Source: an uncultured Thermoleophilia bacterium (lineage in GTDB: Bacteria > Actinomycetota > Thermoleophilia > UBA2241). Taken from it: a stretch of 64,000 nucleotides of DNA. Positions within the stretch are counted from its first letter, which is position 1. Every line of letters begins with the position of its first letter. A program made the translations under genes and the position numbers. The notes beneath the pieces are model-generated. The model ran no database searches, was not told the DNA's origin, and saw only the letters and a list, made by a program, of their open reading frames with translations. The stretch spans positions 439,032-503,031 of the forward strand of contig CAVPXV010000005.1 of the NCBI GenBank assembly GCA_963709845.1, written 5' to 3'. This document shows positions 8,972-52,318 of the stretch, one piece after another.

Positions 8972-10513
8972 ATGATGACCGCTGTGTTGGTAGTCCTGAT
9001 CATCGTGGGGTTCGTGGTCGGCATCGGCCTCGGCTATGTGATCCGCCGCAACCTCGCCTCCACCAAGATGGCGAGCGCCGAGCGCGAGGCCGAGAAGCTG
9101 CTCCACGACGCCAAACGCGAGGCCGACGCTACGCTCAAAGAGGCGCGCCTCGAGGCCAAGGAAGAGGTCCACAGGGTCCGAGACGAGGTCGAGGCCGAGC
9201 TTCGCGAGCGGCGCGAGGAGCTGAGCAAGGCGGAGGCCCGGCAGCTGCAGCGCGACGAGCAGCTCGACGCACGCGCCGCCGAGCAGGAGCGCCGCGAGCA
9301 GTCGCTGCGCGACCGCGACGCCACCACGCAGAAGCAGGCCGACGAGGTGCGCCTCGCCCACGAGGAGATCACCATCCAGCTCGAGCGCATCTCAGGCATG
9401 AGCGCCGCCCAGGCCAAGGACATGCTGCTCAAGCAGACGGAGGACGAGGCCCGGCACGAGATGGCCAAGCTCGTGCGCCAGGTGGATGAAGAGGCGCGCC
9501 GCGAGGCCGACCGGCGCGCCAGGAACATCCTCTCGCTCAGCATCCAGCGCACGGCCGCCAATCACGTCGCCGAGACCACCGTCTCCGTGGTCAACCTGCC
9601 CTCGGACGACATGAAGGGTCGCATCATCGGCCGCGAGGGACGCAACATCCGCACCCTCGAGAACACCACCGGCATCGACTTCATCATCGACGACACGCCG
9701 GAGGCGGTGGTGCTCTCCGGATTCGACGGCGTGCGCCGCGAGACCGCCCGCCTCACGCTCACCAAGCTGATCGCCGACGGCCGCATCCACCCGGCACGCA
9801 TCGAGGAGATGTACCTTCAGGCCAAGGCCGAGGTGGAAGCGGCGATGGAAGAGGCCGGCGAGCAGGCCTGCTTCGACACCAACGTGCACGGCGTGGCGCC
9901 CGAGCTCGTCAGGGTCCTCGGGCGCCTCAAGTACCGCACGAGCTACGGCCAGAACGTGCTGAACCACTCGGTCGAGGTCGCGCACCTCGCCGGCGTCATG
10001 GCCGCCGAGCTGGGCGCCAACGTCAAGATCGCCAAGCGCGCCGGCCTCCTGCACGACATCGGCAAGGCGGTCGACCACGAGGTCGACGGCTCACACGCCG
10101 ACATCTCGCAGCAGCTCTGCAAGAAGTACCGCGAGTCGCAGAGCGTCTGCCACGCCATCCAGGCCCACCACCAGGACATCGAGCCGCAGACGGTCGAGGC
10201 CGTGCTGGTGCAGGCCGCCGACGCCATCTCGGCGGCGCGCCCGGGCGCCCGGCGCGAGTCGCTCGAGAACTACGTCAAGCGTCTCGAGTCGCTCGAGCAG
10301 ATCGCCGAGAGCAAGAAGGGCGTGGAGAAGTGCTTCGCCATGCAGGCGGGCCGCGAGGTGCGCGTGATGGTCAAGCCGGGCGAGATCGACGACGACGCCA
10401 CCGCGCTGCTGGCGCACGAGATCGCCAGGGACATCGAGAGCCAGCTCGACTACCCCGGCCAGATCCGCGTCACCGTGATCCGCGAGAGCCGCGCCGTCGA
10501 CATCGCCAAGTAG
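8972..10513 (+). CDS. rny: Ribonuclease Y
   Basis: N-terminal TM helix, coiled-coil, KH domain ([21 protein letters not shown]) and HD domain ([10 protein letters not shown]...LLHDIGK). Confidence 0.9.
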
Positions 10514-10539
10514 GCGACGGCGCGCGGCGCGCGCATCAG

Positions 10540-11862
10540 ATGCACACCTACTACCTGCGCTCGTTCGGCTGCCAGATGAACGAGCACGACGCCGAGCGCA
10601 TCAGGGCGCTGCTCGAAGGTCGTGGGCTGCGGCCGGTGAAGGTGCCCGACGAGGCCGACGTGCTCGTGTACAACACCTGCACCGTGCGCCACAGCGCCGA
10701 TGAACGGCTGGCGGGCCATCTGGGCACGGCGGCCCGCCTCAAGCGCCTCGACCCGGAGCGCATCGTGCTGGTCACGGGCTGCCTGCCGCAGGCCGAGCAG
10801 CGCGACTTCTTCCGCCGCTTCCCGTTCGTCGACGGCGCCCTCGGGCCCCAGAACCTCCACCGCCTGGCCGAGCTGCTCGAGGCTGCCGTGAAGCCGGTCG
10901 CCGCGGAGGCTCCCCCGGCGTTCCTCGACGACGGGCCGGCCATGAGCGGGGAGCTGCCCGGTCGCCGGGAACGGCCCTTCCAGGCGTGGGTGCAGATCAT
11001 GTCCGGCTGCACGAACTTCTGTACGTACTGCATCGTGCCGCGCGTGCGCGGGCCCGAGCGCAGCCGCGGCGCGTCGTCGATCGTCGCCGAGGTGCGCGAC
11101 CTGGTCGCGGACGGGGTGCGCGAGGTCACCCTGCTCGGCCAGAACGTCAACGCCTATGGGCGGGACCTGAGCGCCGCGGGGCGCGCCGGGGCGCCGGACT
11201 TCCCGGCGCTGCTGCGCGCCCTCGACGCGCTTCCGGGGCTGGAGCGCGTGCGCTTCATGACGTCGCACCCCGGGGATCTCACTGACGCCCTGATCGCCGC
11301 CGTCGCCGAGCTGCGCACCGTCTGCGAGCACGTGCATCTGCCGGCGCAGTCGGGGTCGGACGCCATCCTCGCGGCGATGGGTCGCGGCTACACCGCGAAC
11401 GGGTTCGTCGAGCGCGTGCGCTCGCTGCGCGCGGCCGTGCCCGACGTGAGCATCACCACGGACCTCATCGCCGGGTTCCCGGGGGAGAGCGACGCCGACT
11501 TCGAGCGCACCATGGACCTCGTGCGCACGGCGGCCTTCGACGCGGCGTTCACGTTCGTGTTCTCGCCGCGCCGCGGCACCGCCGCCGCGGACCTCCCAAA
11601 CCAGGTCCCCGACGAGGTCAAGCGGGCTCGGGTCGAGCGTCTCATCGGCCTCACCCAGGAGACGGCGCTGGCACGCCGCCGTGCCTGGATCGGCCGCCGC
11701 GCGGAGGTTCTCGTCGAAGGGCCCAGCCGCGACGCGTCGGGGTGGCGCGGGCGCACGCGGCAGAACGTGACGGTCAACGTGGCGGGGGCCGCCGAGCCCG
11801 GTGCTATAGTTCACGTGGAGGTCGTGGGCGCGACCTCGACCACCCTTCGCGGGCGGGTCTGA
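10540..11862 (+). CDS. miaB: tRNA-2-methylthio-N6-dimethylallyladenosine synthase MiaB
   Basis: MHTYYLRSFGCQMNEHDAE N-terminus (MTTase domain), radical SAM CTNFCTYC and a C-terminal TRAM domain. ATG sits in frame within the longer ORF-track entry. Confidence 0.9.
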   Translation: MHTYYLRSFGCQMNEHDAERIRALLEGRGLRPVKVPDEADVLVYNTCTVRHSADERLAGHLGTAARLKRLDPERIVLVTGCLPQAEQRDFFRRFPFVDGALGPQNLHRLAELLEAAVKPVAAEAPPAFLDDGPAMSGELPGRRERPFQAWVQIMSGCTNFCTYCIVPRVRGPERSRGASSIVAEVRDLVADGVREVTLLGQNVNAYGRDLSAAGRAGAPDFPALLRALDALPGLERVRFMTSHPGDLTDALIAAVAELRTVCEHVHLPAQSGSDAILAAMGRGYTANGFVERVRSLRAAVPDVSITTDLIAGFPGESDADFERTMDLVRTAAFDAAFTFVFSPRRGTAAADLPNQVPDEVKRARVERLIGLTQETALARRRAWIGRRAEVLVEGPSRDASGWRGRTRQNVTVNVAGAAEPGAIVHVEVVGATSTTLRGRV

Positions 11863-11888
11863 CCAGACGGACTCAGGAGGTGCCGGCC

Positions 11889-12695
11889 ATGCAAGGGTGC
11901 ATCTGCCCCCATCCTCCGCTCCTCATCCCCGAGGTGGGAGGGGCCTCGCGCGCCAAGGTGGCGAAGACCGTCCAGGGCATGCAGGAGCTCGCCGCCTCCG
12001 TCGGGGAGCCCGAGACCATCGTCGTCATCTCGCCGCACAGCGAGGGATACGGCACCTCGCACGTGGTCCGCACGGCGCGCCGCCTGCGCGGCGACTTCGG
12101 GCGCTTCCGTCACCCCGAGGCGTCGTTCGCCTACGACGCCGACGTGCCGTTCGCCGAGCTCCTGCTGGCGCTGGCCGGCGACTATCACAAGCTCCGCCTC
12201 GTGCCGGACGACAGTGAGATCCTCGACTGGGGCGTGCTCGTGCCCCTCAGCTTCCTGCCCAGCGTCCCCATCGTCTCCCTGTCGATCGTCAACGAGTACG
12301 CCGAACATCGCACCCTCGGACAGCTCGTGCGCCGCTGCGCCGAGGAGCTGGGCCGCGACACCCTGTTCGTCGCCTCCGGCGACCTCTCGCACGCCCTCAC
12401 GCACGAGGCTCCGGCGCCCTACGATCCTCGCGGCAAGCTGTTCGACGATGAGGTCGTGCAGCTGCTCGGGACCGGCGACTTCCTCGGCCTGACGCGCATG
12501 GACTCCATCCTTCTCGAGGGCGCGGCGGAGTGCGGTCTGCGCAGTTTCATCACCCTGGGCGGCTTCCTCGGCGACGACGCGCTCGTCGATCCGCGGGTCA
12601 TGAGCTACGAGGGCCCGTTCGGGGTGGGCTACATGGTGGCGCGTTTCGGTGCCGCGCGCCGCGCTCGCGATGAGGCCGGCGAGGCCGATGGCTGA
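11889..12695 (+). CDS. Memo/LigB-fold protein; candidate AmmeMemoRadiSam system protein B
   Basis: Sits directly upstream of an AMMECR1 gene and overlaps it. Shows the VVISPHSEG (aromatic-ring-opening dioxygenase / Memo-like) pattern. Assignment to the Memo rather than LigB clade is inferred from context. Confidence 0.55.
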   Translation: MQGCICPHPPLLIPEVGGASRAKVAKTVQGMQELAASVGEPETIVVISPHSEGYGTSHVVRTARRLRGDFGRFRHPEASFAYDADVPFAELLLALAGDYHKLRLVPDDSEILDWGVLVPLSFLPSVPIVSLSIVNEYAEHRTLGQLVRRCAEELGRDTLFVASGDLSHALTHEAPAPYDPRGKLFDDEVVQLLGTGDFLGLTRMDSILLEGAAECGLRSFITLGGFLGDDALVDPRVMSYEGPFGVGYMVARFGAARRARDEAGEADG

Positions 12696-13263
12696 GGCAC
12701 GTCACGGCGCGCCCGGGCCGGCCGACTACGCCCGCGCCTGCGTCGAGAACCTCGTCTGCGGCCGCCCGCTTCCCGAGCCCCCAGCCGGCGAGTTCTTCGC
12801 GCAGGCAGCTTCATGCTTCGTCTCGCTCAAGAAGCGGGGTGCGCTCCGCGGCTGCATCGGCACCCTCGAGCCGGCGGAGCGCGACCTCGCCGCCGAGATC
12901 GCGCGCAACGCCTGCTCGGCGGCCATGCGCGACCCGCGCTTTCACCGCGTGCGCGAGGACGAGCTCGAGGACTTGTCCTGTTCGGTGGACGTCCTCAGCG
13001 CCAGCGAGGCTTGCTCGCTCGAGGACCTCGACCCCTGCGAGTACGGTGTCATCGTGACCTGCGGCCTGCGCCGCGGCGTCCTGCTGCCGGACCTCGAGGG
13101 GATCGACACCGTGGGGCAGCAAGTGGGGGTCGCGCTCCAGAAGGCGGGGATCAGCCCGGACGAAGCCTTCGAGGTCGCCCGCTTCACGGTGTGCCGGTAC
13201 CGCGAAGGCGAGGCCCCGCGCGGCGCTGCTGCGGAGACGGAGCACCCAGAGCCGGATGGCTGA
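12688..13263 (+). CDS. AMMECR1 domain protein (AmmeMemoRadiSam system protein A)
   Basis: Conserved CFVSLKK.GALRGCIG core and C-terminal GVLLP motif. Start overlaps the upstream stop (ATGGCTGA). Confidence 0.8.
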   Translation: MAEARHGAPGPADYARACVENLVCGRPLPEPPAGEFFAQAASCFVSLKKRGALRGCIGTLEPAERDLAAEIARNACSAAMRDPRFHRVREDELEDLSCSVDVLSASEACSLEDLDPCEYGVIVTCGLRRGVLLPDLEGIDTVGQQVGVALQKAGISPDEAFEVARFTVCRYREGEAPRGAAAETEHPEPDG

Positions 13264-14179
13264 ACCGCTGTTCGCCCTGTTCGGGGCGACGGCGCTCGGC
13301 AAGACCGAGGTCGCCCTGGCGCTTGCCGAGACGCTCGGGGCCGAGATCGTCGTCGCCGACTCCATGCAGGTGTACCGCGGCCTGCCCATCGTCACCAATC
13401 AGCCCGACGAGGCGCAGCGGCGACGCGCGCCGCATCACCTTGTCGGCTTCGTCGATCCGCGCCGCGAGTTCACGGTCGCGGAGTACGCGCGCCGCGCACA
13501 CGAGGTCATCGACGGGTTGCTCGCGGCGGGCCGCCGGGTCGTCGTAGAGGGCGGCTCGGGACTCTACTTGCGCGCCGCGCTCGGCGACCTGCGCTTCGCT
13601 CCGGCGCCTTCCCCTGGCGCGCGAGAAGCGCTCGAGGCGCGCTGGGCGCGCGACGCGGACGGAGTCATAGCAGAGCTGCGGGCGCTGGACCCTGCGACCT
13701 GCGCCCGTCTCGACGTGCGCAACCCGCGGCGCGTGCTCCGCGCCCTCGAGGCGGTGCAGGCCGCGGGCCGGCCGCTCCAGGCCGCGGAGGCCGACCAGCT
13801 GTGGCGGCCGGCAGAACGCTACCCACACCGCCTCGTCGCCTTGCTGCCCGACGCCGATCGCGAGGCGCTGCGGGCGGCGATCGACCGCCGCGTCGATCGC
13901 ATGCTCGCCGCCGGCGCGCTCGAGGAGGTGGCGGCCTGTCGCGCCGCGGGCACGCTCTCGCGCACGGTGATGCAGGCGATCGGCGTGCGCGAGCTCTGCG
14001 CTTGCCTCGACGGCGAGCTCACGTCCGCCGAGGCGGCCGCGAGGATGAAGACGCGCACGCACGCTCTGGCCCGCCGCCAGCTGACCTGGATGCGCAAGCT
14101 GCCCGCCTCCGCGCTGGTGGCGGCGTCGGGGCGGCCGGCGGCGCAGGTCGCCGCCGACATCCTGCGCGGAGCGTCCTGA
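13256..14179 (+). CDS. miaA: tRNA dimethylallyltransferase MiaA
   Basis: P-loop FGATALGKTEVAL, DSMQVYRGLPIVTNQP and downstream IPP-transferase motifs. Confidence 0.9.
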   Translation: MAEPLFALFGATALGKTEVALALAETLGAEIVVADSMQVYRGLPIVTNQPDEAQRRRAPHHLVGFVDPRREFTVAEYARRAHEVIDGLLAAGRRVVVEGGSGLYLRAALGDLRFAPAPSPGAREALEARWARDADGVIAELRALDPATCARLDVRNPRRVLRALEAVQAAGRPLQAAEADQLWRPAERYPHRLVALLPDADREALRAAIDRRVDRMLAAGALEEVAACRAAGTLSRTVMQAIGVRELCACLDGELTSAEAAARMKTRTHALARRQLTWMRKLPASALVAASGRPAAQVAADILRGAS

Positions 14180-14250: not shown

Positions 14251-15120
14251 GTGCAGTCCACGTGGCAGGGTCTCGGCAAGGTCCGCTTCTCCAAGTGGCA
14301 GGGCCTCGGCAACCACTACATCGTGCTCCACGCTGAGGAGCTCCCGTTCGCGCTCACCCCGGAGCGGGTCAAGCTGCTCTGCGACCGCAACCTCGGCATC
14401 GGCTCGGACGGGATCATGGTCATCGGCGCGCGCACCGGCGAGGACCGCTTCGAGGTGCGCATCTTCAACCCGGACGGCAGCGAGGCGGAGATGTGCGGCA
14501 ACGGGGTGCGCATGGTCGCGCGCAAGCTGCGCATGGAGGGATCGGTGCGCGGCGACTCCATGGTGCTCGAGACGCCGGCCGGCGAGATCGTGCCCAAGCT
14601 GGGCGACGGCTACATGGTCACCGTGGACATGGGCATCGCCCGGTTCGGCGGCGAGAAGCTCAGCGGCTTCGAGGGGGAGTGCGTCGAGGAATCGCTGCAC
14701 GCCGCCGGCCGCAGCTTCACGTTCACGTTCGTCGACGTGGGCAACCCGCACGCCGTCATCCAGTCGCCGTGGCCGCTCGAACTCGTGCCCCTGCATGAGG
14801 TCGGGCCCATGATCGAGGAACACCACTACTTCCCGCGCAAGGCCAACGTCGAGTTCGTCAAGGTCCTCGGCGAGCACGACGCCAAGTTGCGCGTGTGGGA
14901 GCGCGGCGTGGGGGAGACGAGGGCCTGCGGCACGGGGGCGGTGGCCACCGCCGTCGCGCTCGTGCGCACCGGCCAGTGCACCTCGCCGGTGTCCGTCGAG
15001 CTGCCCGGCGGCAAGCTCGTCGTGGACGTGGGGCCGGACTGGCGTGTGTTCATGACCGGTCCGGCGGAGGAGATCTACCACGGCGACCTCTCGCAGGAGT
15101 TCCTCGATCACCTCGAGTAG
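14251..15120 (+). CDS. dapF: Diaminopimelate epimerase
   Basis: GTG start after AGGAG. Both catalytic Cys regions (FNPDGSEAEMCGNG and GETRACGTGA) are present. Confidence 0.9.
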   Translation: MQSTWQGLGKVRFSKWQGLGNHYIVLHAEELPFALTPERVKLLCDRNLGIGSDGIMVIGARTGEDRFEVRIFNPDGSEAEMCGNGVRMVARKLRMEGSVRGDSMVLETPAGEIVPKLGDGYMVTVDMGIARFGGEKLSGFEGECVEESLHAAGRSFTFTFVDVGNPHAVIQSPWPLELVPLHEVGPMIEEHHYFPRKANVEFVKVLGEHDAKLRVWERGVGETRACGTGAVATAVALVRTGQCTSPVSVELPGGKLVVDVGPDWRVFMTGPAEEIYHGDLSQEFLDHLE

Positions 15121-15156
15121 CGCCCCCTCGCCCACGTCCAGCATCCCAGGAGAGCG

Positions 15157-16320
15157 ATGAGATTCTCACAGCGCGTGCAGAGCCTGCCGCCGTACCTGTT
15201 CGCCGGCATCGAGCGCAAGATCGCCGAACGGCGGGCGTCCGGCAGGGACGTCATCAGCCTCGGGATCGGCGATCCCGACCTGCCCACGCCAGCGCACATC
15301 GTGGCGGCGCTGGCCGAGGCGGCCGCCGACCCGGCGACGCACCAGTATCCGAGCAACCAGGGCGAGCCCGCGTTCCGCGAGGCTGTGGCCGGGTTCTACT
15401 CCACGCGCTTCGGCGTGGAGCTCGACCCGGCCTCCGAGATCATCCCGCTCCTCGGGGCGAAGGAGGGCGTCGCGCACATCTGCCTCGCCCTCCTCGACCA
15501 GTGCGACGTCGCCCTCGCCGCCGACCCGGGCTATCCCGTGTACACCACGGGGCCCCTGCTCGCCGACGGCACCGCCGTCGCCCTGCCGCTCCTGCCCGAG
15601 CTCGGCTTCCAGCCCGACCTCGAAGCCATCGAGCCGAGCGTGCTCGCCAAGGCCAAGATGGTCTTCGTCAGCTACCCGAACAACCCGACGGGCGCCGTCA
15701 TCGAGGACGATTTCTTCGCTCGCCTCGTCGCCTTCGCGCGCGAGTACGACCTGGTGGTGGTGCACGACAACGCCTACGCCGACATCACCTACGACGGCTA
15801 CGTGGCGCCGAGCTTCCTCGGGACGCCCGGCGCCAAGGACGTCGGCGTCGAGATGTTCAGCCTCTCCAAGAGCTACAACATGACCGGCTGGCGCTCCGGC
15901 GCCGTCGTCGGCAACCGCGACGTCGTGGACGCCTTCTGGCGCCTCAAGACCAACATGGACTCCGGCATGTTCGCGGCCGTGCAGCGCGCCAGCGTCGCGG
16001 CCCTCAGCGGCTCGCAGGAGTGCGTCGCCGAGATGTGCCGCGTGTACCGCCGCCGCCGCGACCTCCTCGTGGAGGCGCTGCGCGCGGTCGGCGTGCAGGT
16101 CACGCCTCCCAAGGGCACCATCTATCTATGGGTGCCGGTGCCGCAGGGATACACGTCCGCCGGCTTCACCGAGCAGGTGCTCGAACAGGCGGACGTCGTG
16201 GTGACGCCGGGCGCCGCCTACGGCGCCTGCGGCGAGGGCTACGTGCGCCTCTCGCTCACGGTGCCCGACGACCGCCTGCGGGAGGCCGTGCGGCGCATCG
16301 AGGAGCGCGTACGCCTGTAG
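15157..16320 (+). CDS. dapL: Class I/II PLP aminotransferase, probable LL-diaminopimelate aminotransferase (DapL-type)
   Basis: N-terminal LPPYLFAGIERKI motif characteristic of DapL. PLP lysine region SLSKSYNMTGWRSG. Adjacent to dapF. Confidence 0.7.
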   Translation: MRFSQRVQSLPPYLFAGIERKIAERRASGRDVISLGIGDPDLPTPAHIVAALAEAAADPATHQYPSNQGEPAFREAVAGFYSTRFGVELDPASEIIPLLGAKEGVAHICLALLDQCDVALAADPGYPVYTTGPLLADGTAVALPLLPELGFQPDLEAIEPSVLAKAKMVFVSYPNNPTGAVIEDDFFARLVAFAREYDLVVVHDNAYADITYDGYVAPSFLGTPGAKDVGVEMFSLSKSYNMTGWRSGAVVGNRDVVDAFWRLKTNMDSGMFAAVQRASVAALSGSQECVAEMCRVYRRRRDLLVEALRAVGVQVTPPKGTIYLWVPVPQGYTSAGFTEQVLEQADVVVTPGAAYGACGEGYVRLSLTVPDDRLREAVRRIEERVRL

Positions 16321-16330
16321 AGGCCTCACC

Positions 16331-17665
16331 GTGACGCCCGTCGAGGCACAGGGCGCGGAGAACGGCGCGACGACGCCGCGCCCGCGCGCCGTGGTCTTCG
16401 CCGTGATGCGCGGCGGTCACGGCGGACCCGGCGAGGACGAGCCGCTCAACGAGATCAAGGAGCTGCTGCGCTCGGCCGAGATGGACTGGGCCGCCGACGT
16501 GATCCAGCACCGTGACCTGCCCGATCGCCATACCTACCTGGGCAAGGGCAAGATGACGGACCTCAAGGCGGCGGTCGTCGACAGCGGGGCGACCGTAGCC
16601 GTCTGCGAGGACGATCTCAGCCCGGCGCAGGTGGGGGCGGTGCTCGATGCGGTCGACGTAGACGTCCTCGACCGCACCGAGCTCATCCTCAGCGTGTTCA
16701 GCAAGCACGCGCACACCCTCGAGGGCACGTTGCAGGTGCACCTGGCACAGCTCGAATACGAGCTCACGCGCATGCGCGGCAAGGGTCTCGTGTTGTCGCG
16801 TCTCGGCGCCGGCGTGGACATGCGCGGCCCCGGCGAGACCAAGATGGAGGTCGACCGGCGTGTGGTGCGCAAGCGCATCCAGACTCTGCGCCGGCGCATC
16901 GACCAGATGGCGCGGACGCGGCGCACGCAGCGTGCCCGCCGCGTCCGCTCGGCCGTGCCCCTGATCGCGCTCGCCGGCTACACCAACGCCGGCAAGTCGA
17001 CCTTGCTGAACGCGCTCACCGACGCCCACGTGTCGGTCAACGACCGTCTGTTCGAGACGCTCGACCCCACGTCGCGCTCGTACCGCTTCCGCGATCGCGA
17101 CTACGTCGTCACCGATACGGTCGGGTTCATCCGCAAGCTGCCGCACACGCTCGTCGACGCCTTCGCCTCGACGCTCGAGGAGACCACGCTTGCCGACGTG
17201 GTACTCGTGGTCGCCGACGCCAGCCTCGAGCCCTCCGAGATCGCCGTGCGCGAGGAGACCGTAGCCGAGGTGCTCGACATGATCGGCTCCCGGGCGCCGC
17301 GCGTGGTCGTGTTCAACAAGATCGACCGTGTCGACGCGGGCAGGCTGATGCGCCTGCATGCCTTGTACCCGGAGGCGGAGTTCGTCTCCGCGGCCCGAGG
17401 CGAAGGTCTCGGCGCCCTCCAGACGCGCCTCGCCGACTTCTTCGACCGCGCTCTGCGGCCGGTCCGCCTGCTGTTCCCCTATACGGAGACCGCCGCCATG
17501 CATCGCCTGCGCGGCATCGCCAGCGACGTCCGCGAAGAGCACAGGGAGGACGGCGTGATCTTCGAGGCGCGCCTGCCGGTCGCCGAAGCGGGCCGCTACG
17601 CCCGCTTCGTCACGGACATCGACTCGGAAGACGCCGACGTCGAAGGGAGCGCCGGTGAGCGCTGA
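16331..17665 (+). CDS. hflX: GTPase HflX
   Basis: HflX N-terminal domain plus G-domain (G1 GYTNAGKSTLLNALT, DTVGFI, NKID). Confidence 0.9.
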   Translation: MTPVEAQGAENGATTPRPRAVVFAVMRGGHGGPGEDEPLNEIKELLRSAEMDWAADVIQHRDLPDRHTYLGKGKMTDLKAAVVDSGATVAVCEDDLSPAQVGAVLDAVDVDVLDRTELILSVFSKHAHTLEGTLQVHLAQLEYELTRMRGKGLVLSRLGAGVDMRGPGETKMEVDRRVVRKRIQTLRRRIDQMARTRRTQRARRVRSAVPLIALAGYTNAGKSTLLNALTDAHVSVNDRLFETLDPTSRSYRFRDRDYVVTDTVGFIRKLPHTLVDAFASTLEETTLADVVLVVADASLEPSEIAVREETVAEVLDMIGSRAPRVVVFNKIDRVDAGRLMRLHALYPEAEFVSAARGEGLGALQTRLADFFDRALRPVRLLFPYTETAAMHRLRGIASDVREEHREDGVIFEARLPVAEAGRYARFVTDIDSEDADVEGSAGER

Positions 17666-25134: not shown

Positions 25135-27657
25135 CTAGTCGTTCTCCGCGATCACGTCGCGCACCACCGCGAGCAGGTCCTCGGCCAGGCGCTCCGACTC
25201 GGCGTGGTCCGCGCCCTCGGCGTAGACGTGGAAGACGGGCTCGTCGGCGTCCGGCAGGAGCTGGACCCAGCTGCCGTCGTGCCGCATCCTGATCCCGTCC
25301 AAAAGGCTGATCTCGGCGCCGGCGGCGGCGCGCTGCTGCAGACCCTCCGTCGCCGTGCGCATCACCGTGCCCTTGAGCGACCAGGGGCAGGCCACGGTCT
25401 TGTGTACCAGGGTGCTGGCGGGGATGTCGGCGACCTGCGCGCTGAGGGGCCGCGCCTGCGGCGCCAGCAGCTCCAGCAGCTTGCCCAGGCTCATGACGGC
25501 GTCGAAGGCGGGCAGGAACTGCGGGAAGATGTAGCCGCCGCCGAGCGCCCCGGCGAACACGACGCCGTCCTCGAGTGACGCCTTGGCGAGCTCCGGCAGC
25601 GAGACTTTGGTGCGCACGATCTCGACGCCGAACTCGCCGGCGAGCTGCTCGGCGAGGTGCGTGATGGTGAGCGGCAGCACGATCTTCTCGCCCCTGCCCG
25701 CCTGCTGCGCCACGAGCTTCACGAACAGGAGGAGCGCCTTCTCGAGAGGCACCTCGGCGCCCGAGTCGTCGATGATGTAGATGCGCTCGGCGCCCGGGCC
25801 GATGACCACGCCGAGGTCCGCCTCCATGGTACGCACCAGGCGCTGCACCTCGGCGATGTTGGCGCCGAGCTGCTCCGCGTCGAGGCTCACGTGGCGCTGA
25901 TCGTTGAAGGCGCGCACCGAGAGGACCTCGGCGTCGAGGTCGCCGAGGATGTTGGGCAGCGAGAGCGAAGCGGGTGAGTGCGAGTAGTCGATCACGAGGC
26001 GGTAGGCGCGGCTGCGGATGCGCTCCCCGTCCCACGAGCCTTTGAGGCCGCGCACGTAGGTCTCCATCGCCCTGTCGGGGAACTGGAGCTCGCCGAACTC
26101 GCTGTAGAAGGCGCGGCGGAAGTCCTCGCGCCCGTAGTACTTCTCGATGTCCTTCTGGCGTTTCTCGCTGAGGTTGAGGCCGGGGGGCTCGAACACCTGG
26201 ATCTGGATCATCTCCGGGTCCCAGCTCGAGATGCGCACGTGCATGCCGCCGTCGGCGCTCCCCGTCCTGGCCTCGTACCTGTTGATGGCGCTGCTGGCGA
26301 CGCGCAGATCGCGCACGATGACGCCGGTGGAGTTGAGGCCGCAGATGAGGGCGCGCTTGATGACCCGCGAGGCCGGATGGGCGTCGCGGCTCGTGGTGAC
26401 GCTGGCGCCCTTCTTGAGCGCCGTGCCGTAGGCCATCGCCAGCTTGAGCGCGAGCTCGGCGGTGATGTCGACGTTGATCAGGCCGGTGACGCCGTCCTTG
26501 CCGAAGAGCTGCGCCGTGCCGCGTGACTCCCAGATGATGCTCGAGTTGACCTGCGCGCCGGCCTCGACCGTCTTGAACGGGTAGACCTTGACGTCCGGGG
26601 CGATGTAGGCCTGCTCGCCGATCACGCACTCGTCGCCGATGGCGACGCCCTCGCTGAAGGTGGCGCCGGCCTTGACGTCGCAGTTCTTGCCGACGATGGT
26701 GCCGTACACCTTGGCCGACGAGCCGATGTACGTGTTGGCGCCGATGACGCTGTTGCGCGTCTCGGCGTGCCCTTTGACCACGACGTTGCTGCCCAGGACG
26801 GAGTACCTGCCGATGGACGCCGTGGCGTCGATCTTGGCGTAGTTGCCGATGAACGCCGGACCGCTCATGTTCTCGAGCGAGTCGAGGTTGATGCCGTCGC
26901 CGAGGAAGATGCGGTCGTGAAGCTCGATGCCGGGGATCTCGGCCTCGACCTTGCCGTCGAGGAGGTCGCGGTTGGCGGCGAGGTACTGCGGCAGGCTGCC
27001 GATGTCCTGCCAGTAGCCCTCCGCGACGTAGCCGAAGAGGGGCGCGCCCATCTCGAAGAGCTTCGGAAACAGGTCCTGGCTGAAGTCGTACTGGGTGTCG
27101 GCCGGGATGTGGTCGAAGACCTCGGGCTCGAGCACGTAGATGCCGGTGTTGACCGTGTCGCTGAACACCTGGCCCCAGGTGGGCTTCTCGAGGAAGCGCT
27201 CGATGCGGCCTTCCTCGTCGACGACGACGACGCCGAAGTCGAGGGGGTTCTCGACGCGCTTGAGCGCGATGGTGACCATGGCGCCGCGGCGCTTGTGGAA
27301 GGCGACGATCTCGCTGAGGTCGAAGTCGGTGAGCGCGTCCCCCGAGATGACGATGAAGGTGTCGTCGCGCAGGTGGTCCTCGGCCAGCTTCACGCTCCCG
27401 GCGGTGCCGGCCGGCGCCTGCTCCACGGAGTAGTTCATGCTCACGCCCAGCGACGAGCCGTCGCCGAAGTAGTCGCGGATGACCTTGGGCAGGAACATCA
27501 GCGTGACCACGGTCTCGTCGATGCCGTGCCGCTTGATGAGCTCGACGATGTACTCCATGCAGGGCTTGCCGCAGAGCGTCACCATCGGCTTGGGCTGGTT
27601 GCTGGTGAGCGGGCGCAGCCTGGTGCCCTCGCCGCCTGCCATGACGACCGCACGCAT
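25135..27657 (-). CDS. Sugar-phosphate nucleotidyltransferase (left-handed beta-helix C-terminus) fused to a phosphomannomutase/phosphoglucomutase-like domain
   Basis: ATG after [26 protein letters not shown] nucleotidyltransferase motif with hexapeptide repeats. The C-terminal alpha/beta PGM/PMM-like domain lacks a canonical TASHNP phosphoserine loop ([13 protein letters not shown] instead). Confidence 0.8.
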
Positions 27658-27773
27658 GGGCCTCACCTGTGCTTTCGCTCGAGAGGACTGGACGTCGTGC
27701 GGCAATCGTACCAGAGCGCGGCGAGCGCGGGCCACGTTGCCGCGGGGGGCTCGCCGGAGAGGCGGCGCGGGGC

Positions 27774-28334
27774 TCAGGCGGCAGCGCCGCCCCCTCCCCG
27801 CGCCCGGCGCACGAAGGCGACGGCACGGTGCAGGTACAGAAGACCGCTGGCCACGTAGAGCGTCGCGCCCACGGCGAAGAACGACCAGCCCACGACGCGG
27901 AAGTCGATGATGAACCACTGGATGGCGCAGATCAGGATGAAGTTGCCGGCCTTGCCCCAGCGGCTGATCTGTGGCCCCTGCCGCGTGTAGCGCCGCGTCG
28001 GCGCCACCAGCACCAGGATGACGCCGTCGCGGACCAGGAGCGGAAGCACGGCCCACCAGGGCAGTGTGCCGAAGTACCAGAGCATCGCCACAAGTGTGAA
28101 GAAGAAGAGCCGGTCGACGATGGGGTCCAGCCAGCGCCCGAACTCGCTCTGCAGGTGGTAGCGCCGCGCGATGATCCCATCGGCGACGTCGCTGAGCGCC
28201 GCGAAGAGGACGATCCAGGCCGTCGTCCAGCTGGCGCCGGGCGCGTAGAGGCCGTAGGTCCAGACGACGAAAGGCAGGGCCACGAGGCGCGCGACGGTGA
28301 GGACGTTGGGCACGTGGCGCAGGAGGCGTTCCAT
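27774..28334 (-). CDS. CDP-alcohol phosphatidyltransferase family protein
   Basis: Signature [10 protein letters not shown]...G...DPIVDR with 5-6 TM segments. Confidence 0.8.
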
Positions 28335-28446
28335 TGGCGGGCAGTCTAGCAGGCCGCTGTGGAAGCCGCCGCGCGGCCCCTCACCGGCCCCTCTCCCCCA
28401 CGCCGACGCCTCCGCGTGCCTATGCTAGAATACGGCGCTGTACGGT

Positions 28447-44725: not shown

Positions 44726-44859
44726 GACACTAAGAGATATCGCCCGCGGCGCCCGGATACTTGAGTGGCAACGCCGCGTGCGTTGTCACAGCGGACAACG
44801 CGAGGAGCTCTCCCCCAGCCTCGAAGGCGGCGTTGCCGCGCCGCGAGGCGGCCCTGGGG

Positions 44860-46565
44860 TCAGCGGTCGAGCAGCTCCCGCAGAGCGGCGGCGAGCTCGG
44901 CCACGGGCACGTCGCGGCGCTCGCCGCCGGCGCGGTCCTTGAGCTCGACGACGCCCTCGGGCGCGCGTTTGCCGACGACCACCTGCGCCGGGCAGCCGAG
45001 CAGGTCGGCGTCCTTGAACTTGATGCCCGGGGCTCAGGTCGCGGTCGTCGTAGAGCACCTCGAAGCCGGCGGCGGCGAGCTCGGCGTAGAGCCGCTCGGC
45101 GAGCGCCGCCTGCGTCTCGTCGGAGGCGCGCACGAGCACGAGGTGCACGTGGAACGGCGCGATCGCCGCCGGCCAGACGATGCCGTTGCCGTCGTGGTGC
45201 TGCTCGATGGCGGCGGCGGCGATGCGCGCCAGGCCGATGCCGTAGCTGCCCATGACGATGTCCTGCTCCTTGCCGTCCTCGTCGAGGTAGGTGGCGCCCA
45301 TGGGGTGCGAGTACTTGGTGCCGAGCTGGAAGATGTTGCCGACCTCGATCACCCGGGCGCCCTCGAGCTGCGTGGGCGCAGCGCGCGCAGGGGTCGCCCG
45401 GGCGCGCCTGGCGCAGGTCGCGGAACTCGGCCTGCGGGATCTGCGCCGGCGAGACGCCGCCGCGGTGGTAGTCGGGCTTGTTGGCGCCGGCGACGTAGGA
45501 GCCCCGGCGCAGCGCCTCGTCGGCGATCACCGGCAGCGAGGTCGGCACGGGGCCGACGAAGCCCGGCTCGATGCCCTGGGCAGCGAGCACCTCGTCGGCC
45601 GTCGCCATGCGCAACTCGGCGCCGAGCGCCTTGCGCAGCTTGAGCTCGCTGAGCTCGTGGTCGCCGCGCAGCAGGACCATGACGGCGCGGCCCTCGCCGC
45701 CCTCCGCGTCCTCGGCGATCACCACGAGCGCCTTCACGAAGCCGCGCGCCGGCACGCCGAGGAAGGCGCTCACCTCGGCGATGGTGCGCGCCCCGGGCGT
45801 GTGCAGCTCGCCCTCGCCGGGCACCTCGGCCGGCGCCTCCGCATCGGCGCCGGCGACGGCCGTCTCCACGTTGGCCGCGTAGCCGCACTCGCGGCAGTAG
45901 ACGATCTCGTCCTCGCCGGCCTCGGCGAAGGCCATGTACTCGTGCGAGACGTCGCCGCCCATCATCCCCGAGTCGCCCTCGACCATCATCACCGCGAGGC
46001 CGCAGCGCGCGTAGATGCGCTCGTAGGCGCCGATGTGCTTGCGGTAGCTCTCCTGGAGGGCCTCGAAGCTCACGTCGAGGCTGTAGGAGTCCTTCATGAT
46101 GAACTCGCGCGTGCGCAGCACGCCGCTCTTGGGCCGCGCCTCGTCGCGCTCCTTGGTCTGGATGTGGTACCAGAGCTGCGGCAGCTGCTTGTAGCTGTGG
46201 ACCTCGCGCGCCGCCAGCCAGGTGATGACCTCTTCGTGGGTCATCGCCAGCGCCATGTCGGCGCCCTTGCGGTCCTTGAGGCGGAAGAGCTCCTCGTCGA
46301 TGGCGTCCCAGCGGCCCGACTGCTGCCAGATCTCGGCCGGGTTGATGACCGGCATGAGCATCTCCTGGCAGCCGATGGCGTCCATCTCCTCGCGGATGAT
46401 GGCGGCGATCTTCTGCATCACGCGCCAGCCGGCCGGCAGGTACACGTAGACGCCGGCGGCGAGCTGGCGCACGAGGCCGGCGCGCACCATCAGCTTGTGG
46501 CTGATGGCCTCGGCGCCGGCCGGATCCTCTTTGACGGTGGGCAGGAGCAGCTGACTGGCGCGCAT
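44860..46565 (-). pseudogene. proS: Proline--tRNA ligase (bacterial type), two frame changes near the 3' end
   Basis: N-terminal 400 aa intact in ORF 44730..46565 (MRASQLLLPTVKEDP..., class II motifs). The anticodon-binding domain continues in ORF 44786..45352 ([18 protein letters not shown]...). The last about 55 aa ([10 protein letters not shown]...LLDR) are in a third frame. Confidence 0.8.
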
Positions 46566-46609
46566 GTGACCTCGCGATGGTGTGGTGTGGCGGGCGAGGC
46601 CCTATGCTA

Positions 46610-48856
<2,247 letters not shown>

Positions 48857-48913
48857 GCCGGCGATTGTATCAGCCGGCGCCGCCCGCCCGATGTCGGGGA
48901 CTGGCGACCGTTG

Positions 48914-50077: not shown

Positions 50078-51223
50078 TCAGCCAGTGTCCTCTCTCCTAT
50101 CGCCCGAGGATGGGCCGGGCGCCGGCGCCGCCAGTCGCCCGGCCGGGAACAGGCCGTCCTGCTCGGCGAGCTCGCAGAACCAGTAGGCGCCGAGCACGTC
50201 GCCGGAGCGGTAGTAGTTCTGGGCGATGCAGGAGCCGAGGCAGGCGGCGCGCATCAGGCAACGGCCACACACACCGCCGAGGCCGTCGGGCAGACCCTCG
50301 CGGATGCGCACGAGCACCGGGTGCTCGCGCCAAACGTGCGCCAGCTCGCCCTCGCCGGCGCGACCGAATACCAGCTCCGGCACGTGCTCGCCGATGCCGC
50401 ACAGCGCGTAGCTGCCATCGGCCAGCAGGCCCAGGATCCCACGGATGCCGCAGATGCCGCAGCCGTCGCCGCCGAGGTACTCCCCGAGGGGGCGGAAGGC
50501 CGCGGGGACGTCGACGTAGATCGGCAGGGAGAACCGCTGCCGGAGGTCGTCGCGCACCCGCGAGTGAAGCTCCAGGTACTCGCCGATCGACAGCCCCTCC
50601 CCGCTGGCGTAGATGTCCTCGCCGCGCAGCGTCGGCTGGATGAAGTTGATCTTCACGGAGCCGACGCCCAGCTCCTCGGCGAGCTCCAGCACCGCCTCGA
50701 GCTCGCCGACGTTCGTGCGCATCGCGCTCGTGATGAACTGCGTGTCGAGCCCTGCGGCGACCAGGTTGCGCGTGCCCTCGAGCGTGCGCGCATGCGCCCC
50801 GCGCACGCCGCGGATGGCGTCGTGCACGTCCGCGGAAGCGCCGTCGAGGCTCACGGAGACGAAGTCCACGCCGGCCTCCAGGAGGTGCTCCGCCAAGGCG
50901 CTGGTGACCAGGAGGCCGTTGGTCTCCATGTGCCCGCCGAGCCCGTGATGTGCCTGGATGTCCAGCAGCTCGCCGAAGGCCGGGTGCAAGGTCGGCTCTC
51001 CGCCCGTCCACTTGAGCGTCGTCAGGCCGAGCGGCTTGGCCTCCTCGATGGCGGCGTCCAGGGCGGTAGGCGTGAGGAAGCGCGCGGCGCGGCCGCCGCC
51101 CGCCTTCTTGGCAGGTACGATCCAGCAGTGCCTGCAGGCGCAGTTGCAGCCGTCGGTCACGTACACGTAGAGCTGGCGCAGGGGCGGCGTGCTCACGCTC
51201 GCCGGCGACTCCGTCACTTCCAC
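50078..51223 (-). CDS. Radical SAM/SPASM-domain peptide-modifying enzyme
   Basis: Cx3Cx2C cluster DGCNCACRHCW and a Cys-rich C-terminal SPASM region (CGICGI...CGIGE...CGRCLMRAACLGSC). Confidence 0.85.
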   Translation of the reverse strand: MEVTESPASVSTPPLRQLYVYVTDGCNCACRHCWIVPAKKAGGGRAARFLTPTALDAAIEEAKPLGLTTLKWTGGEPTLHPAFGELLDIQAHHGLGGHMETNGLLVTSALAEHLLEAGVDFVSVSLDGASADVHDAIRGVRGAHARTLEGTRNLVAAGLDTQFITSAMRTNVGELEAVLELAEELGVGSVKINFIQPTLRGEDIYASGEGLSIGEYLELHSRVRDDLRQRFSLPIYVDVPAAFRPLGEYLGGDGCGICGIRGILGLLADGSYALCGIGEHVPELVFGRAGEGELAHVWREHPVLVRIREGLPDGLGGVCGRCLMRAACLGSCIAQNYYRSGDVLGAYWFCELAEQDGLFPAGRLAAPAPGPSSGDRREDTG

Positions 51224-52318
51224 CCCGCGATCCCCTCGGCCTCGAGCTCCGCCTCAAAGCGGCGCAGGCAGGCGTCGGGGCTCGGCCGATTGGCGTCGCC
51301 GAGCAGCGAAAGGGCTCCACCGGCGCAGTTGCCGGTGCACGACTCGATGTAGTCGCAGCCCGCGCACTCCTCGAACTCGGCCAGCGCTTTCTGCCGGCGC
51401 GCGCGCAGCTCCTGCAGCGCCGGCGCGCTCTGCCACACGTCCACAAGCCGGTCTTCGCCGATGTGGCCGAGTACGATCTGCGGCAGCGCCACGCACGGCA
51501 CGTAGGCGCCGTCGGCGCGCACCGCAAGTTGCTTCAGCATGCAGCCGCAGCCCACGAGTTTGCCATGCCCTGGGATGGGCTCTCCCGCCTCCCGCGCCAG
51601 CTCCAGGGCGCAGAACATGTGCCAGTCAGCGAGAGGGCCGGCCATGGCAGTCACGCGCCCCGGATAGCGTTCCTCGAGCTCGGCGAGCGTGTGCATGGCC
51701 TGCACCCGCTGCGCCGGCGTGAGGAACATCCCGAGCTCGTACTTCTCGTGGGTGCCCAGCGAGGTGATGGCGTTGGTGCTGAACGTCGGCAGGCCGAGGT
51801 CGTCGAGCAGGAGCGCCGCCAGCGCCGGCAGGTCGTCGAGGTTGGCGCGCGTTCACAGTCACGCGCACGGTCGTCGGCAGCCCGGCCGCCTGCAGCGTGC
51901 GGATCGCGCGCAGTGCAGGCTCGAAGGTGCCGGGGCCGCGCAGGCGCTCGTGCGCCGCTGCGGTGGAGCCGTCCAGGGAGACCTGGACGGACGAGCACCG
52001 CCGCGTCGCCGCCAGCGCCTGCGCGAGCTCAGCCGTGACGAACCACCCGTTGGTGAGCACGCGAAAGCGGATGTTGCGGCTGCCGAGCTCCTCGGCCAGC
52101 TCGACGAAGTCGGGCCGCATCAGCGGCTCTCCGCCCGCCAGCGTGGCTTCGAGGACCTTTGCCTCGGCGAGTTCGTCGAAGAAGGCGAGCCACGCCGACG
52201 TGGGCAGGTCCTCGTAGCGCACGCCCTCGTTCTTCAGGTAGTAGCAGTAGGCGCAGCGCGCGTTGCAGCGGCTGGTGAGCTCCAGGTCGACCTCGAGAGG
52301 CGTGCGCGGCAGCGAGGC
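51214..52318 (-). pseudogene. Second radical SAM/SPASM-domain enzyme, one frame change near 51680
   Basis: Radical SAM half LELTSRCNARCAYCYY...LAGGEPL in ORF 51626..52504. SPASM half (CGCMLKQLAVRADGAYVPCV...CAGCDYIESCTGNCAG) in ORF 51214..51729. Confidence 0.75.

What the first reader, a model, noticed from the sequence alone, without database searches (positions are those of the whole stretch)
11889..13263. AmmeMemoRadiSam A/B pair wedged between miaB and miaA without the cognate radical SAM partner
An AMMECR1 protein with the CFVSLKK-GALRGCIG core and a Memo/LigB-fold protein overlap by 8 nt. They are inserted between the two enzymes that jointly make ms2i6A37 on tRNA. The third member of the three-gene system (a PFL-activase-like rSAM) is not here. 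The only rSAM nearby is MiaB. Conserved placement inside a tRNA-modification operon would be a functional clue for this still-uncharacterised system.
Basis: partly seen in the sequence, partly recalled or inferred. Interest (0 to 1): 0.5.

Follow-up and report, generated by a model that had tools for sequence, protein, structure and literature searches.

The report
LigB-like/AMMECR1 pair inside miaB–miaA operon
Two overlapping genes of a widespread but still uncharacterised enzyme system (an AMMECR1 protein and its dioxygenase-fold partner) sit between the two tRNA-modification genes miaB and miaA in one lineage of Actinomycetota, without the radical SAM gene that normally sits beside them; this hints at a function but does not prove one.

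Summary
Window 11889-12695 encodes a 268-aa class III extradiol-dioxygenase-fold protein and 12688-13263 a 191-aa AMMECR1 protein. They overlap by 8 nt and lie between true miaB (10540-11862) and miaA (13256-14179).

The upstream protein is LigB-type, not Memo-type. It hits Pfam LigB at 104 bits with no Memo hit, its fold matches Memo1 at only TM 0.50, and TIGR04336 scores 22.1 against a cutoff of 26. Even so, it is the usual AMMECR1 partner. In 57 loci from other lineages, its orthologues are fused to or adjacent to AMMECR1, and the TIGR04337 radical SAM gene sits immediately beside them.

The miaB-[pair]-miaA order recurs in 18-19 loci, nearly all Actinomycetota (Thermoleophilia, Ca. Aquicultoria, allied MAGs). 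None of these loci has TIGR04337 within 10 kb. These loci form one clade, so this is one insertion into an old syntenic backbone, inherited vertically.

All conserved catalytic residues are kept. The link to ms2i6A37 is a fair, testable hypothesis, but it rests on a single evolutionary event. I could not test whether the radical SAM gene lies elsewhere in the genome. I rate this a new context variant of a known, uncharacterised system, of moderate interest.

The parts
10540..11862 (+). miaB, the tRNA i6A37 methylthiotransferase (radical SAM), directly upstream with a 26-nt gap
   Evidence: TIGR01574 at 440.5 bits, cutoff 355.3; Pfam UPF0004 + Radical_SAM + TRAM
11876..11880 (+). GGAGG Shine-Dalgarno sequence, 8 nt before ATG 11889
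   Evidence: read directly from the sequence
11889..12695 (+). LigB-like protein (class III extradiol dioxygenase fold, TK2203-like), 268 aa. This is the 'B'-type partner of AMMECR1. Conserved residues: H8, H50, D113, H168, E214, C215, R218, Y240, E241.
   Evidence: PF02900 at 104 bits. AF2 pLDDT 95.5. Foldseek 7txy_B and 5hee_A at TM 0.77-0.81. Conservation. TIGR04336 only 22.1, below 26.
12688..12695 (+). 8-nt overlap ATGGCTGA between the LigB-like stop and the AMMECR1 start (translational coupling)
12688..13263 (+). AMMECR1-domain protein, 191 aa, with the RGCIG motif (Cys56) and DPRF motif (D82, R84, F85)
   Evidence: PF01871 at 140.5 bits; TIGR04335 at 120.3, cutoff 99. PDB 1zq7 at E 1.8e-13. 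Conservation.
13256..13263 (+). second 8-nt overlap ATGGCTGA, between the AMMECR1 stop and the miaA start
13256..14179 (+). miaA, the tRNA A37 dimethylallyltransferase, translationally coupled to AMMECR1
   Evidence: TIGR00174 at 203.2 bits, cutoff 148.65; Pfam IPPT
8972..10513 (+). rny (RNase Y), the upstream member of the conserved backbone
   Evidence: TIGR03319 at 731.7 bits. No terminator-like site between here and about 18300.
14251..17665 (+). dapF, dapL and hflX, the downstream members of the conserved backbone
   Evidence: TIGR00652, NF006756 and TIGR03156. The same order appears in the related loci.

Best explanation
The two ORFs are an intact, co-translated copy of the LigB-like + AMMECR1 module. 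Elsewhere in bacteria this module is usually a single fused polypeptide encoded beside the PFL-activase-like radical SAM enzyme TIGR04337. In other words, it is the LigB-type version of the 'AmmeMemoRadiSam' system.

In an ancestor of one Actinomycetota lineage (Thermoleophilia, Ca. Aquicultoria, allied MAGs) the module was inserted once. The site was the ancient recA-rny-miaB-[ ]-miaA-dapF-dapL-hflX backbone. The radical SAM gene is no longer adjacent, and the module has since been inherited vertically as part of the miaA transcription unit.

Shown: gene identities, the overlaps, the synteny, monophyly of the clade, retention of every family-wide conserved residue, and mutual exclusivity of the radical SAM and mia contexts.

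Inferred mechanism: the LigB-like subunit keeps the His/His/Glu metal site, the catalytic His, and an invariant Cys215. It probably carries out metal-dependent redox chemistry together with the Cys56 thiol of AMMECR1 (RGCIG). The substrate would be the same as in the radical-SAM-linked systems. The literature predicts an RNA base.

Co-expression with MiaB and MiaA fits a tRNA/translation-related role. It does not by itself show action on ms2i6A37.
For: Identity.

Fusions: about half of the distant representatives (35-46% identity) are 430-520 aa, and nine of the ten long ones scanned are LigB+AMMECR1 fusions. A fused 467-aa form lies between miaB and miaA in L014.

Radical SAM context: in 57 loci a 275-350 aa radical SAM gene abuts the pair. 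Four that I tested score 255-341 bits on TIGR04337, cutoff 220.

mia context: 18-19 loci, GC 45-72%, LigB identity down to 40%. Gaps between AMMECR1 and miaA are at most 74 nt or the genes overlap.

Mutual exclusivity of the two contexts.

Single clade in an NJ tree of LigB+AMMECR1.

No loss of residues that are conserved in the radical-SAM-linked group.

Operon: no terminator-like site between rny and dut.

The prediction of an RNA base modification by AMMECR1 + ring-opening dioxygenase + radical SAM comes from Balaji & Aravind 2007 (PMC2034487).
Against: - The substrate is unknown, and no member of this system has been characterised biochemically in the literature I could search.
- I could not determine whether the mia-type genomes encode TIGR04337 elsewhere.
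- The NJ tree is a quick distance tree without support values.
- Loci were selected for presence of the LigB-like gene. I did not see how many related Actinomycetota have an empty miaB-miaA interval.
Confidence: 0.7

Rival explanations
1. Direct functional link. The pair acts in the i6A/ms2i6A37 pathway, for example by further modifying the isopentenyl or methylthio adenine, or by servicing MiaB. In this lineage MiaB may have taken the place of TIGR04337 as the radical SAM partner.
For: - Tight, translationally coupled operon with miaA. Both junctions overlap by 8 nt in the window, and related loci show 4-11 nt overlaps or short gaps.
- L016 keeps pair+miaA even though miaB has been replaced upstream.
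- MiaB occupies the position immediately upstream of the LigB gene. TIGR04337 occupies that same position in the sister Chloroflexota loci: offsets about -1340 and about -1100.
- The two contexts are mutually exclusive.
- The RNA-base-modification prediction (PMC2034487).
- From memory only: the abstract of Burroughs et al. 2019 (JBC 294:10211) links Memo-AMMECR1 contexts to 'nucleotide base and aliphatic isoprenoid modification'. The paper is not held.
Against: - There is one evolutionary event only.
- No miaA or miaB lies within 10 kb of the pair in about 60 loci from other lineages.
- Own knowledge: the miaB-miaA interval in other Actinomycetota, e.g. M. tuberculosis Rv2733c..Rv2727c, holds unrelated lineage-specific genes, so it looks like a permissive slot.
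- Own knowledge: AMMECR1 is near-universal in Archaea, which lack MiaA and i6A.
- No residue changes distinguish the mia clade from radical-SAM-linked copies. One might expect such changes if the partner had changed.
Confidence: 0.2
2. Catabolic enzyme. The upstream protein is an ordinary aromatic ring-cleavage (LigB/aminophenol/HpaD-type) dioxygenase, unrelated to AMMECR1 function.
For: Pfam LigB hit, and the best fold matches are ring-cleaving dioxygenases.
Against: - Scores are far below every catabolic equivalog cutoff, e.g. HpaD 31.8 against 315.95.
- The protein is fused or coupled to AMMECR1 in almost all of the 84 loci.
- It is present in small-genome Patescibacteria and Dehalococcoidia.
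- No aromatic-catabolism genes are nearby.
Confidence: 0.03
3. Reduced system. The lineage has lost TIGR04337 altogether, and the LigB-like/AMMECR1 pair works without any radical SAM enzyme, as AMMECR1 and Memo presumably do in eukaryotes. The mia position would be neutral.
For: - No TIGR04337 in the 64-kb window or within 10 kb in any mia-type locus.
- Dehalococcoidia loci L018, L072 and L080 also lack an adjacent radical SAM gene.
Against: Absence from a neighbourhood is not absence from a genome. Full retention of all residues shared with radical-SAM-linked copies fits an unchanged pathway equally well.
Confidence: 0.3

Closest known systems
AmmeMemoRadiSam three-gene system (NCBIfam TIGR04335 / TIGR04336 / TIGR04337)
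   Same: The AMMECR1 protein passes TIGR04335. Its partner belongs to the same LigB/Memo superfamily and is adjacent and translationally coupled. Orthologues of both, in other lineages, sit next to TIGR04337.
   Different: The partner scores 22.1 on TIGR04336 (cutoff 26) and is LigB-type rather than Memo-type. No TIGR04337 gene is in the window or in any mia-type locus. The pair is embedded between miaB and miaA.
LigB-like-AMMECR1 fusion proteins: the 'ring-opening dioxygenase' fusions of Balaji & Aravind 2007 (PMC2034487)
   Same: The two domains occur in the same order. Identity is 35-46% in the LigB part, and all invariant residues are shared. A fused form also occurs within the mia-type clade (L014).
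   Different: Here the domains are split into two ORFs with an 8-nt overlap.
TK2203 of Thermococcus kodakarensis (PDB 5hee) and aminophenol 1,6-dioxygenase beta subunit (7txy, 3vsh)
   Same: Closest solved sequences and folds. Profile score 101 bits to TK2203; TM 0.77-0.81. The first two metal-ligand His and the catalytic His align.
   Different: Only 20-22% identity. Those proteins are not reported with AMMECR1 partners in my results. A catabolic role is unlikely here.
MEMO1 (PDB 3bcz, 7kq8)
   Same: Same superfamily, and AMMECR1 is a frequent genomic partner of Memo-type proteins.
   Different: TM only 0.50, profile E 0.9, and no Pfam Memo hit.
MiaE (ms2i6A37 hydroxylase)
   Same: The only established 'third enzyme' acting after MiaA and MiaB on A37 (PMC5699536). 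It is a functional analogy for the rival hypothesis.
   Different: Own knowledge: MiaE is an unrelated diiron monooxygenase. No homology, and no evidence here for hydroxylation.

Membership tests
AmmeMemoRadiSam system | Component A: AMMECR1-domain protein above the TIGR04335 cutoff | tested here: met
   120.3 bits against cutoff 99; PF01871 at 140.5 bits; RGCIG and DPRF motifs present
AmmeMemoRadiSam system | Component B: Memo-like protein above the TIGR04336 cutoff | tested here: not met
   22.1 bits against cutoff 26, a local match only, and no Pfam Memo hit. Two other mia-type copies tested score 23.2-23.6. Orthologous domains in four radical-SAM-linked fusions tested, and in fused L018, score 28.7-38.7.
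AmmeMemoRadiSam system | A and B genes adjacent or fused | tested here: met
   8-nt overlap here; adjacent or fused in nearly all loci with enough sequence
AmmeMemoRadiSam system | TIGR04337 radical SAM gene in the same neighbourhood | tested here: not met
   The profile of 53 TIGR04337-type proteins has no hit at E<=1e-3 in the 64-kb window or in any mia-type locus
AmmeMemoRadiSam system | TIGR04337 radical SAM gene anywhere in the genome | not testable with these tools
   Only 64 kb of a contig of about 683 kb is available.
Class III extradiol dioxygenase (LigB, PF02900) | Sequence family and fold | tested here: met
   104 bits against cutoff 26.3. AF2 pLDDT 95.5. TM 0.77-0.81 to 7txy_B and 5hee_A.
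Class III extradiol dioxygenase (LigB, PF02900) | Metal ligands (2 His + Glu) and catalytic His conserved | tested here: met
   H8, H50 and H168 align with the PHPP, APH and LSH histidines of 7txy_B. H8, H50, H168 and E241 are >=90% conserved in both groups. The equivalence of E241 is inferred.
Class III extradiol dioxygenase (LigB, PF02900) | Aromatic ring-cleavage activity | not testable with these tools
   Needs an enzyme assay. Scores are far below all catabolic equivalog cutoffs.
Memo (PF01875) | Pfam or profile match and Memo-like fold | tested here: not met
   No Pfam hit at E<=0.01. Profile E 0.9 against MEMO1. TM 0.50.
MiaB / MiaA (flanking genes) | Equivalog-level match | tested here: met
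   TIGR01574 at 440.5, above 355.3; TIGR00174 at 203.2, above 148.65

The most novel reading that the evidence does not exclude
In this Actinomycetota lineage the LigB-like/AMMECR1 module works with MiaB and MiaA rather than with TIGR04337. It would act on i6A/ms2i6A37 of tRNA, or on MiaB itself. This would give the first biochemical handle on the AMMECR1 family, which includes a human disease gene.
Probability: 0.12. Interest if true: 0.8.

Novelty: new variant of a known kind. Interest (0 to 1): 0.4.

Why it matters
AMMECR1 is conserved from archaea to humans and is mutated in an X-linked syndrome, yet I found no demonstrated biochemical activity in the literature I could search. The bacterial three-gene system has been an annotated mystery since TIGRFAMs named it.

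This lineage offers a cheap, specific experiment. The module has been kept for a long time inside the miaB-miaA operon and lacks its usual radical SAM neighbour. One can express the pair in E. coli and look for miaA- or miaB-dependent changes in tRNA nucleosides.

A negative result would also help. It would show that this synteny is hitch-hiking in a conserved backbone, a useful caution when inferring function from gene order in Actinomycetota.

Tried and rejected
1. A script suggested an AMMECR1-MiaA fusion in L013. The ORF listing shows a stop at 11360 and miaA starting at 11367, so there is no fusion.
2. The long or odd homologues P0035 (457 aa), P0102 (413 aa), P0124 and P0125 carry only a LigB domain, or a stray radical SAM fragment. 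They look like frameshift or merge artefacts, not informative fusions.
3. I looked for a TIGR04337 gene by CX3CX2C motif and by a custom HMM across the window. The motif scan turned up only RimO, an ScmF-type protein and a GDP-mannose dehydratase fragment; MiaB's stop-to-stop ORF did not pass the script's codon-bias filter, and its radical SAM domain is known from Pfam instead. The HMM found nothing.
4. I could not locate the radical SAM gene elsewhere in the genome. I therefore did not spend a search on it.
5. Literature: nothing in the held library links AMMECR1 with MiaA or MiaB, and I found no biochemical characterisation of AMMECR1. Burroughs et al. 2019 (JBC; PMC6664185) is not held, so its content is cited from memory only.
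6. I looked for independent tRNA-related neighbours in other lineages:
- The truA-rplM-rpsI-cwlD block lies upstream in at least 8 Bacillota-type loci.
- hflX follows the radical SAM gene in two loci.
- A SelA-like ORF, identified by eye and not scanned, lies upstream in two Dehalococcoidia loci.
All of these are themselves conserved backbone positions, so they are weak evidence.
7. Rfam and tRNA scans of the window found nothing near the locus.

Full report
**1. What is in the sequence**

The window is about 71% GC. On the + strand, around the finding, the gene order is:
- recA, recX
- rny (8972-10513)
- miaB (10540-11862)
- a 268-aa ORF (11889-12695)
- a 191-aa ORF (12688-13263)
- miaA (13256-14179)
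- dapF, dapL, hflX, dut

The 268-aa ORF has a GGAGG 8 nt before its ATG. It overlaps the next ORF by 8 nt, and that ORF overlaps miaA by 8 nt. Both junctions read GATGGCTGA. A simple scan finds no terminator-like site between the rny leader and about 18300. One long transcription unit is therefore plausible, though this is an inference.

MiaB and MiaA pass their NCBIfam equivalog cutoffs, at 440.5 vs 355.3 and 203.2 vs 148.65.

**2. Identity of the two proteins**

The downstream protein is an AMMECR1-domain protein.
- PF01871 scores 140.5 bits, and TIGR04335 ('AmmeMemoRadiSam system protein A') scores 120.3 against a cutoff of 99.
- Its closest solved relative is MM0484, PDB 1zq7.
- It carries the RGCIG (Cys56) and DPRF motifs. 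Balaji & Aravind proposed these as the active site (PMC2034487).

The upstream protein is a class III extradiol-dioxygenase-fold protein.
- Pfam LigB scores 104 bits, and there is no Pfam Memo hit.
- The AlphaFold model has pLDDT 95.5.
- The best Foldseek matches are aminophenol 1,6-dioxygenase beta (7txy_B) and TK2203 (5hee_A), at TM 0.77-0.81. MEMO1 reaches only TM 0.50.
- A family profile gives 101 bits to TK2203 and E 0.9 to MEMO1.
- TIGR04336 ('system protein B') scores 22.1, just under its cutoff of 26.

The protein is therefore LigB-type, not Memo-type. The histidines H8, H50 and H168 align with the metal-ligand and catalytic histidines of 7txy_B. H8, H50, D113, H168, E214, C215, R218, Y240 and E241 are at least 90% conserved across the family.

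**3. This LigB-like family is the regular partner of AMMECR1**

An exhaustive search of 50%-identity representatives found 2116 relatives. About half of those at 35-46% identity are 430-520 aa long. Nine of the ten long ones I scanned are LigB+AMMECR1 fusions.

A scan of one genome per species returned 80 loci. In nearly all loci with enough sequence, AMMECR1 is fused to or directly downstream of the LigB-like gene.

In 57 of these loci, a 275-350 aa radical SAM gene abuts the pair. The loci come from Bacillota, Chloroflexota, Patescibacteria, Coriobacteriia and others. Four that I tested score 255-341 bits on TIGR04337, whose cutoff is 220. The LigB-like domains of four such radical-SAM-linked fusions tested, plus the fused protein of L018 (which has no adjacent radical SAM gene), just pass TIGR04336 at 28.7-38.7 bits.

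The association of AMMECR1 with a ring-opening dioxygenase (including fusions) and a radical SAM enzyme was published in 2007, together with the prediction of an RNA base modification (PMC2034487).

**4. Is the miaB-[pair]-miaA order conserved?**

Yes, but only within one lineage. The order miaB, LigB-like, AMMECR1, miaA, usually followed by dapF, dapL and hflX, appears in:
- the close relatives fetched by exact protein look-up;
- loci L005-L016, L032, L033 and L076.

These are Thermoleophilia MAGs, unclassified Actinomycetota MAGs, and Ca. Subteraquimicrobium, which belongs to the class Ca. Aquicultoria. One 3.2-kb contig (L011) is labelled Deltaproteobacteria and may be mis-binned.

Across these loci:
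- GC ranges from 45 to 72%, and LigB identity to the window falls to 40%.
- Gaps between AMMECR1 and miaA are at most 74 nt, or the genes overlap by 4-11 nt.
- L014 carries the pair as one fused 467-aa ORF between miaB and miaA.
- L016 keeps pair+miaA, but has sugar-nucleotide genes (my reading of the ORFs, not scanned) instead of miaB upstream.

None of these loci, nor the 64-kb window, contains a TIGR04337-type gene. Conversely, none of the roughly 60 non-mia loci has miaA or miaB within 10 kb. The two contexts are mutually exclusive.

**5. How much does this synteny say about function?**

In a neighbour-joining tree of concatenated LigB+AMMECR1, all mia-type copies form a single clade, sister to the Chloroflexota copies. 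The simplest history is one insertion followed by vertical inheritance.

From my own knowledge, the recA...miaB...miaA-dapF-hflX backbone is ancient in Actinomycetota. The miaB-miaA interval holds unrelated lineage-specific genes in other members, for example M. tuberculosis Rv2733c to Rv2727c. That weakens guilt-by-association here.

In other lineages the system also sits at conserved 'housekeeping' positions. In at least 8 Bacillota-type loci it lies after truA-rplM-rpsI-cwlD, and in two loci it lies before hflX. Blocks like these also carry functionally unrelated passengers such as cwlD.

The mia clade keeps every residue that is conserved in the radical-SAM-linked group. The only exception is a Gly-to-Ala/Ser change at AMMECR1 position 42. 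There is no sign of decay or of a changed partner interface.

Also from my own knowledge, AMMECR1 is near-universal in Archaea, which lack MiaA and i6A. The family as a whole cannot be dedicated to i6A.

**6. Best reading and rivals**

I give 0.7 to the following reading. This is the LigB-type AMMECR1 module, intact and probably performing the same still-unknown reaction as elsewhere. It was captured once into the miaA operon of this lineage.

I give about 0.2 to a direct role in the i6A/ms2i6A37 pathway, and about 0.12 to the stronger version in which MiaB replaces TIGR04337 as the partner. Points in favour:
- the translational coupling to miaA;
- retention of pair+miaA in L016;
- MiaB sitting exactly where TIGR04337 sits in the sister Chloroflexota loci (offsets about -1340 and about -1100).

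From memory only, the abstract of Burroughs et al. 2019 (JBC 294:10211) links Memo-AMMECR1 contexts to 'nucleotide base and aliphatic isoprenoid modification'. If that paper already lists the mia context, the novelty here falls further. It is not in the held library.

A catabolic ring-cleavage role is very unlikely, for three reasons:
- scores are far below every catabolic equivalog cutoff;
- the protein is coupled to AMMECR1 nearly everywhere;
- it occurs in small-genome Patescibacteria and Dehalococcoidia.

**7. What remains open**

I could not test whether the mia-type genomes carry TIGR04337 elsewhere. This is the single most informative missing computation. The single most informative experiment is tRNA nucleoside mass spectrometry after heterologous expression.

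**8. Verdict**

This is a new genomic-context variant of a known, uncharacterised system: split or fused LigB-like/AMMECR1, no adjacent radical SAM gene, embedded in miaB-miaA. Interest is moderate (0.4). The clue is real and cheaply testable, but it rests on one evolutionary event.

Noticed in passing
window 12687-12695 and 13255-13263: Both gene junctions (LigB-like/AMMECR1 and AMMECR1/miaA) use the identical 9-mer GATGGCTGA. Each upstream protein ends in Asp-Gly and each downstream protein starts Met-Ala-Glu.
   Followed up: partly
window 50078-51852 (- strand): A SynChlorMet-cassette radical SAM/SPASM pair. ScmF (50078-51253) scores 425 bits on TIGR04251, cutoff 400. The adjacent ORF matches only positions 151-351 of ScmE, so it appears truncated or frameshifted.
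   Followed up: partly
window 44730-48913 (- strand): Several housekeeping genes match only part of their family models: proS (1-395 of 559), gmd (1-213 of 342), fcl (2-174 of 308). This pattern suggests indel errors in a long-read assembly, or pseudogenes. The four genes of the finding are full length.
   Followed up: no
window 25135-28380 (- strand); L016 5816-9830: A 1081-aa stop-to-stop ORF combines a mannose-1-phosphate guanylyltransferase-like part and a phosphohexomutase-like part. By size and N-terminal sequence, two ORFs that look like the same two gene types occupy the place of miaB upstream of the pair in L016. I did not scan the L016 ORFs against family models.
   Followed up: no
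L031, L036, L041, L046, L048, L051, L066, L070: In these Bacillota-type loci the LigB-AMMECR1 + TIGR04337 cluster lies just downstream of the conserved (ecfA-ecfT-)truA-rplM-rpsI-cwlD block. This is a second lineage-specific housekeeping position for the system.
   Followed up: partly
L025 and L027 (Desulfovirgula, Desulfofundulus), about 10000-14000: The order is fused LigB-AMMECR1, then TIGR04337 radical SAM, then hflX. So hflX neighbours the system in a second phylum as well as in the Actinomycetota backbone.
   Followed up: no
L018, L072, L080 (Dehalococcoidia chromosomes): Fused LigB-AMMECR1 with no TIGR04337 within 10 kb. L072 and L080 have a SelA-like gene upstream and a RarA-like gene downstream (my reading of the ORFs, not scanned). 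These show that the radical SAM gene is not always adjacent outside the mia clade either.
   Followed up: no
L066 (record titled Chitinophagales MAG): This 70%-GC contig carries the Bacillota-type truA-rplM-rpsI-cwlD context, and its LigB/AMMECR1 clusters with Bacillota MAGs. The taxonomic label is probably a binning error.
   Followed up: no
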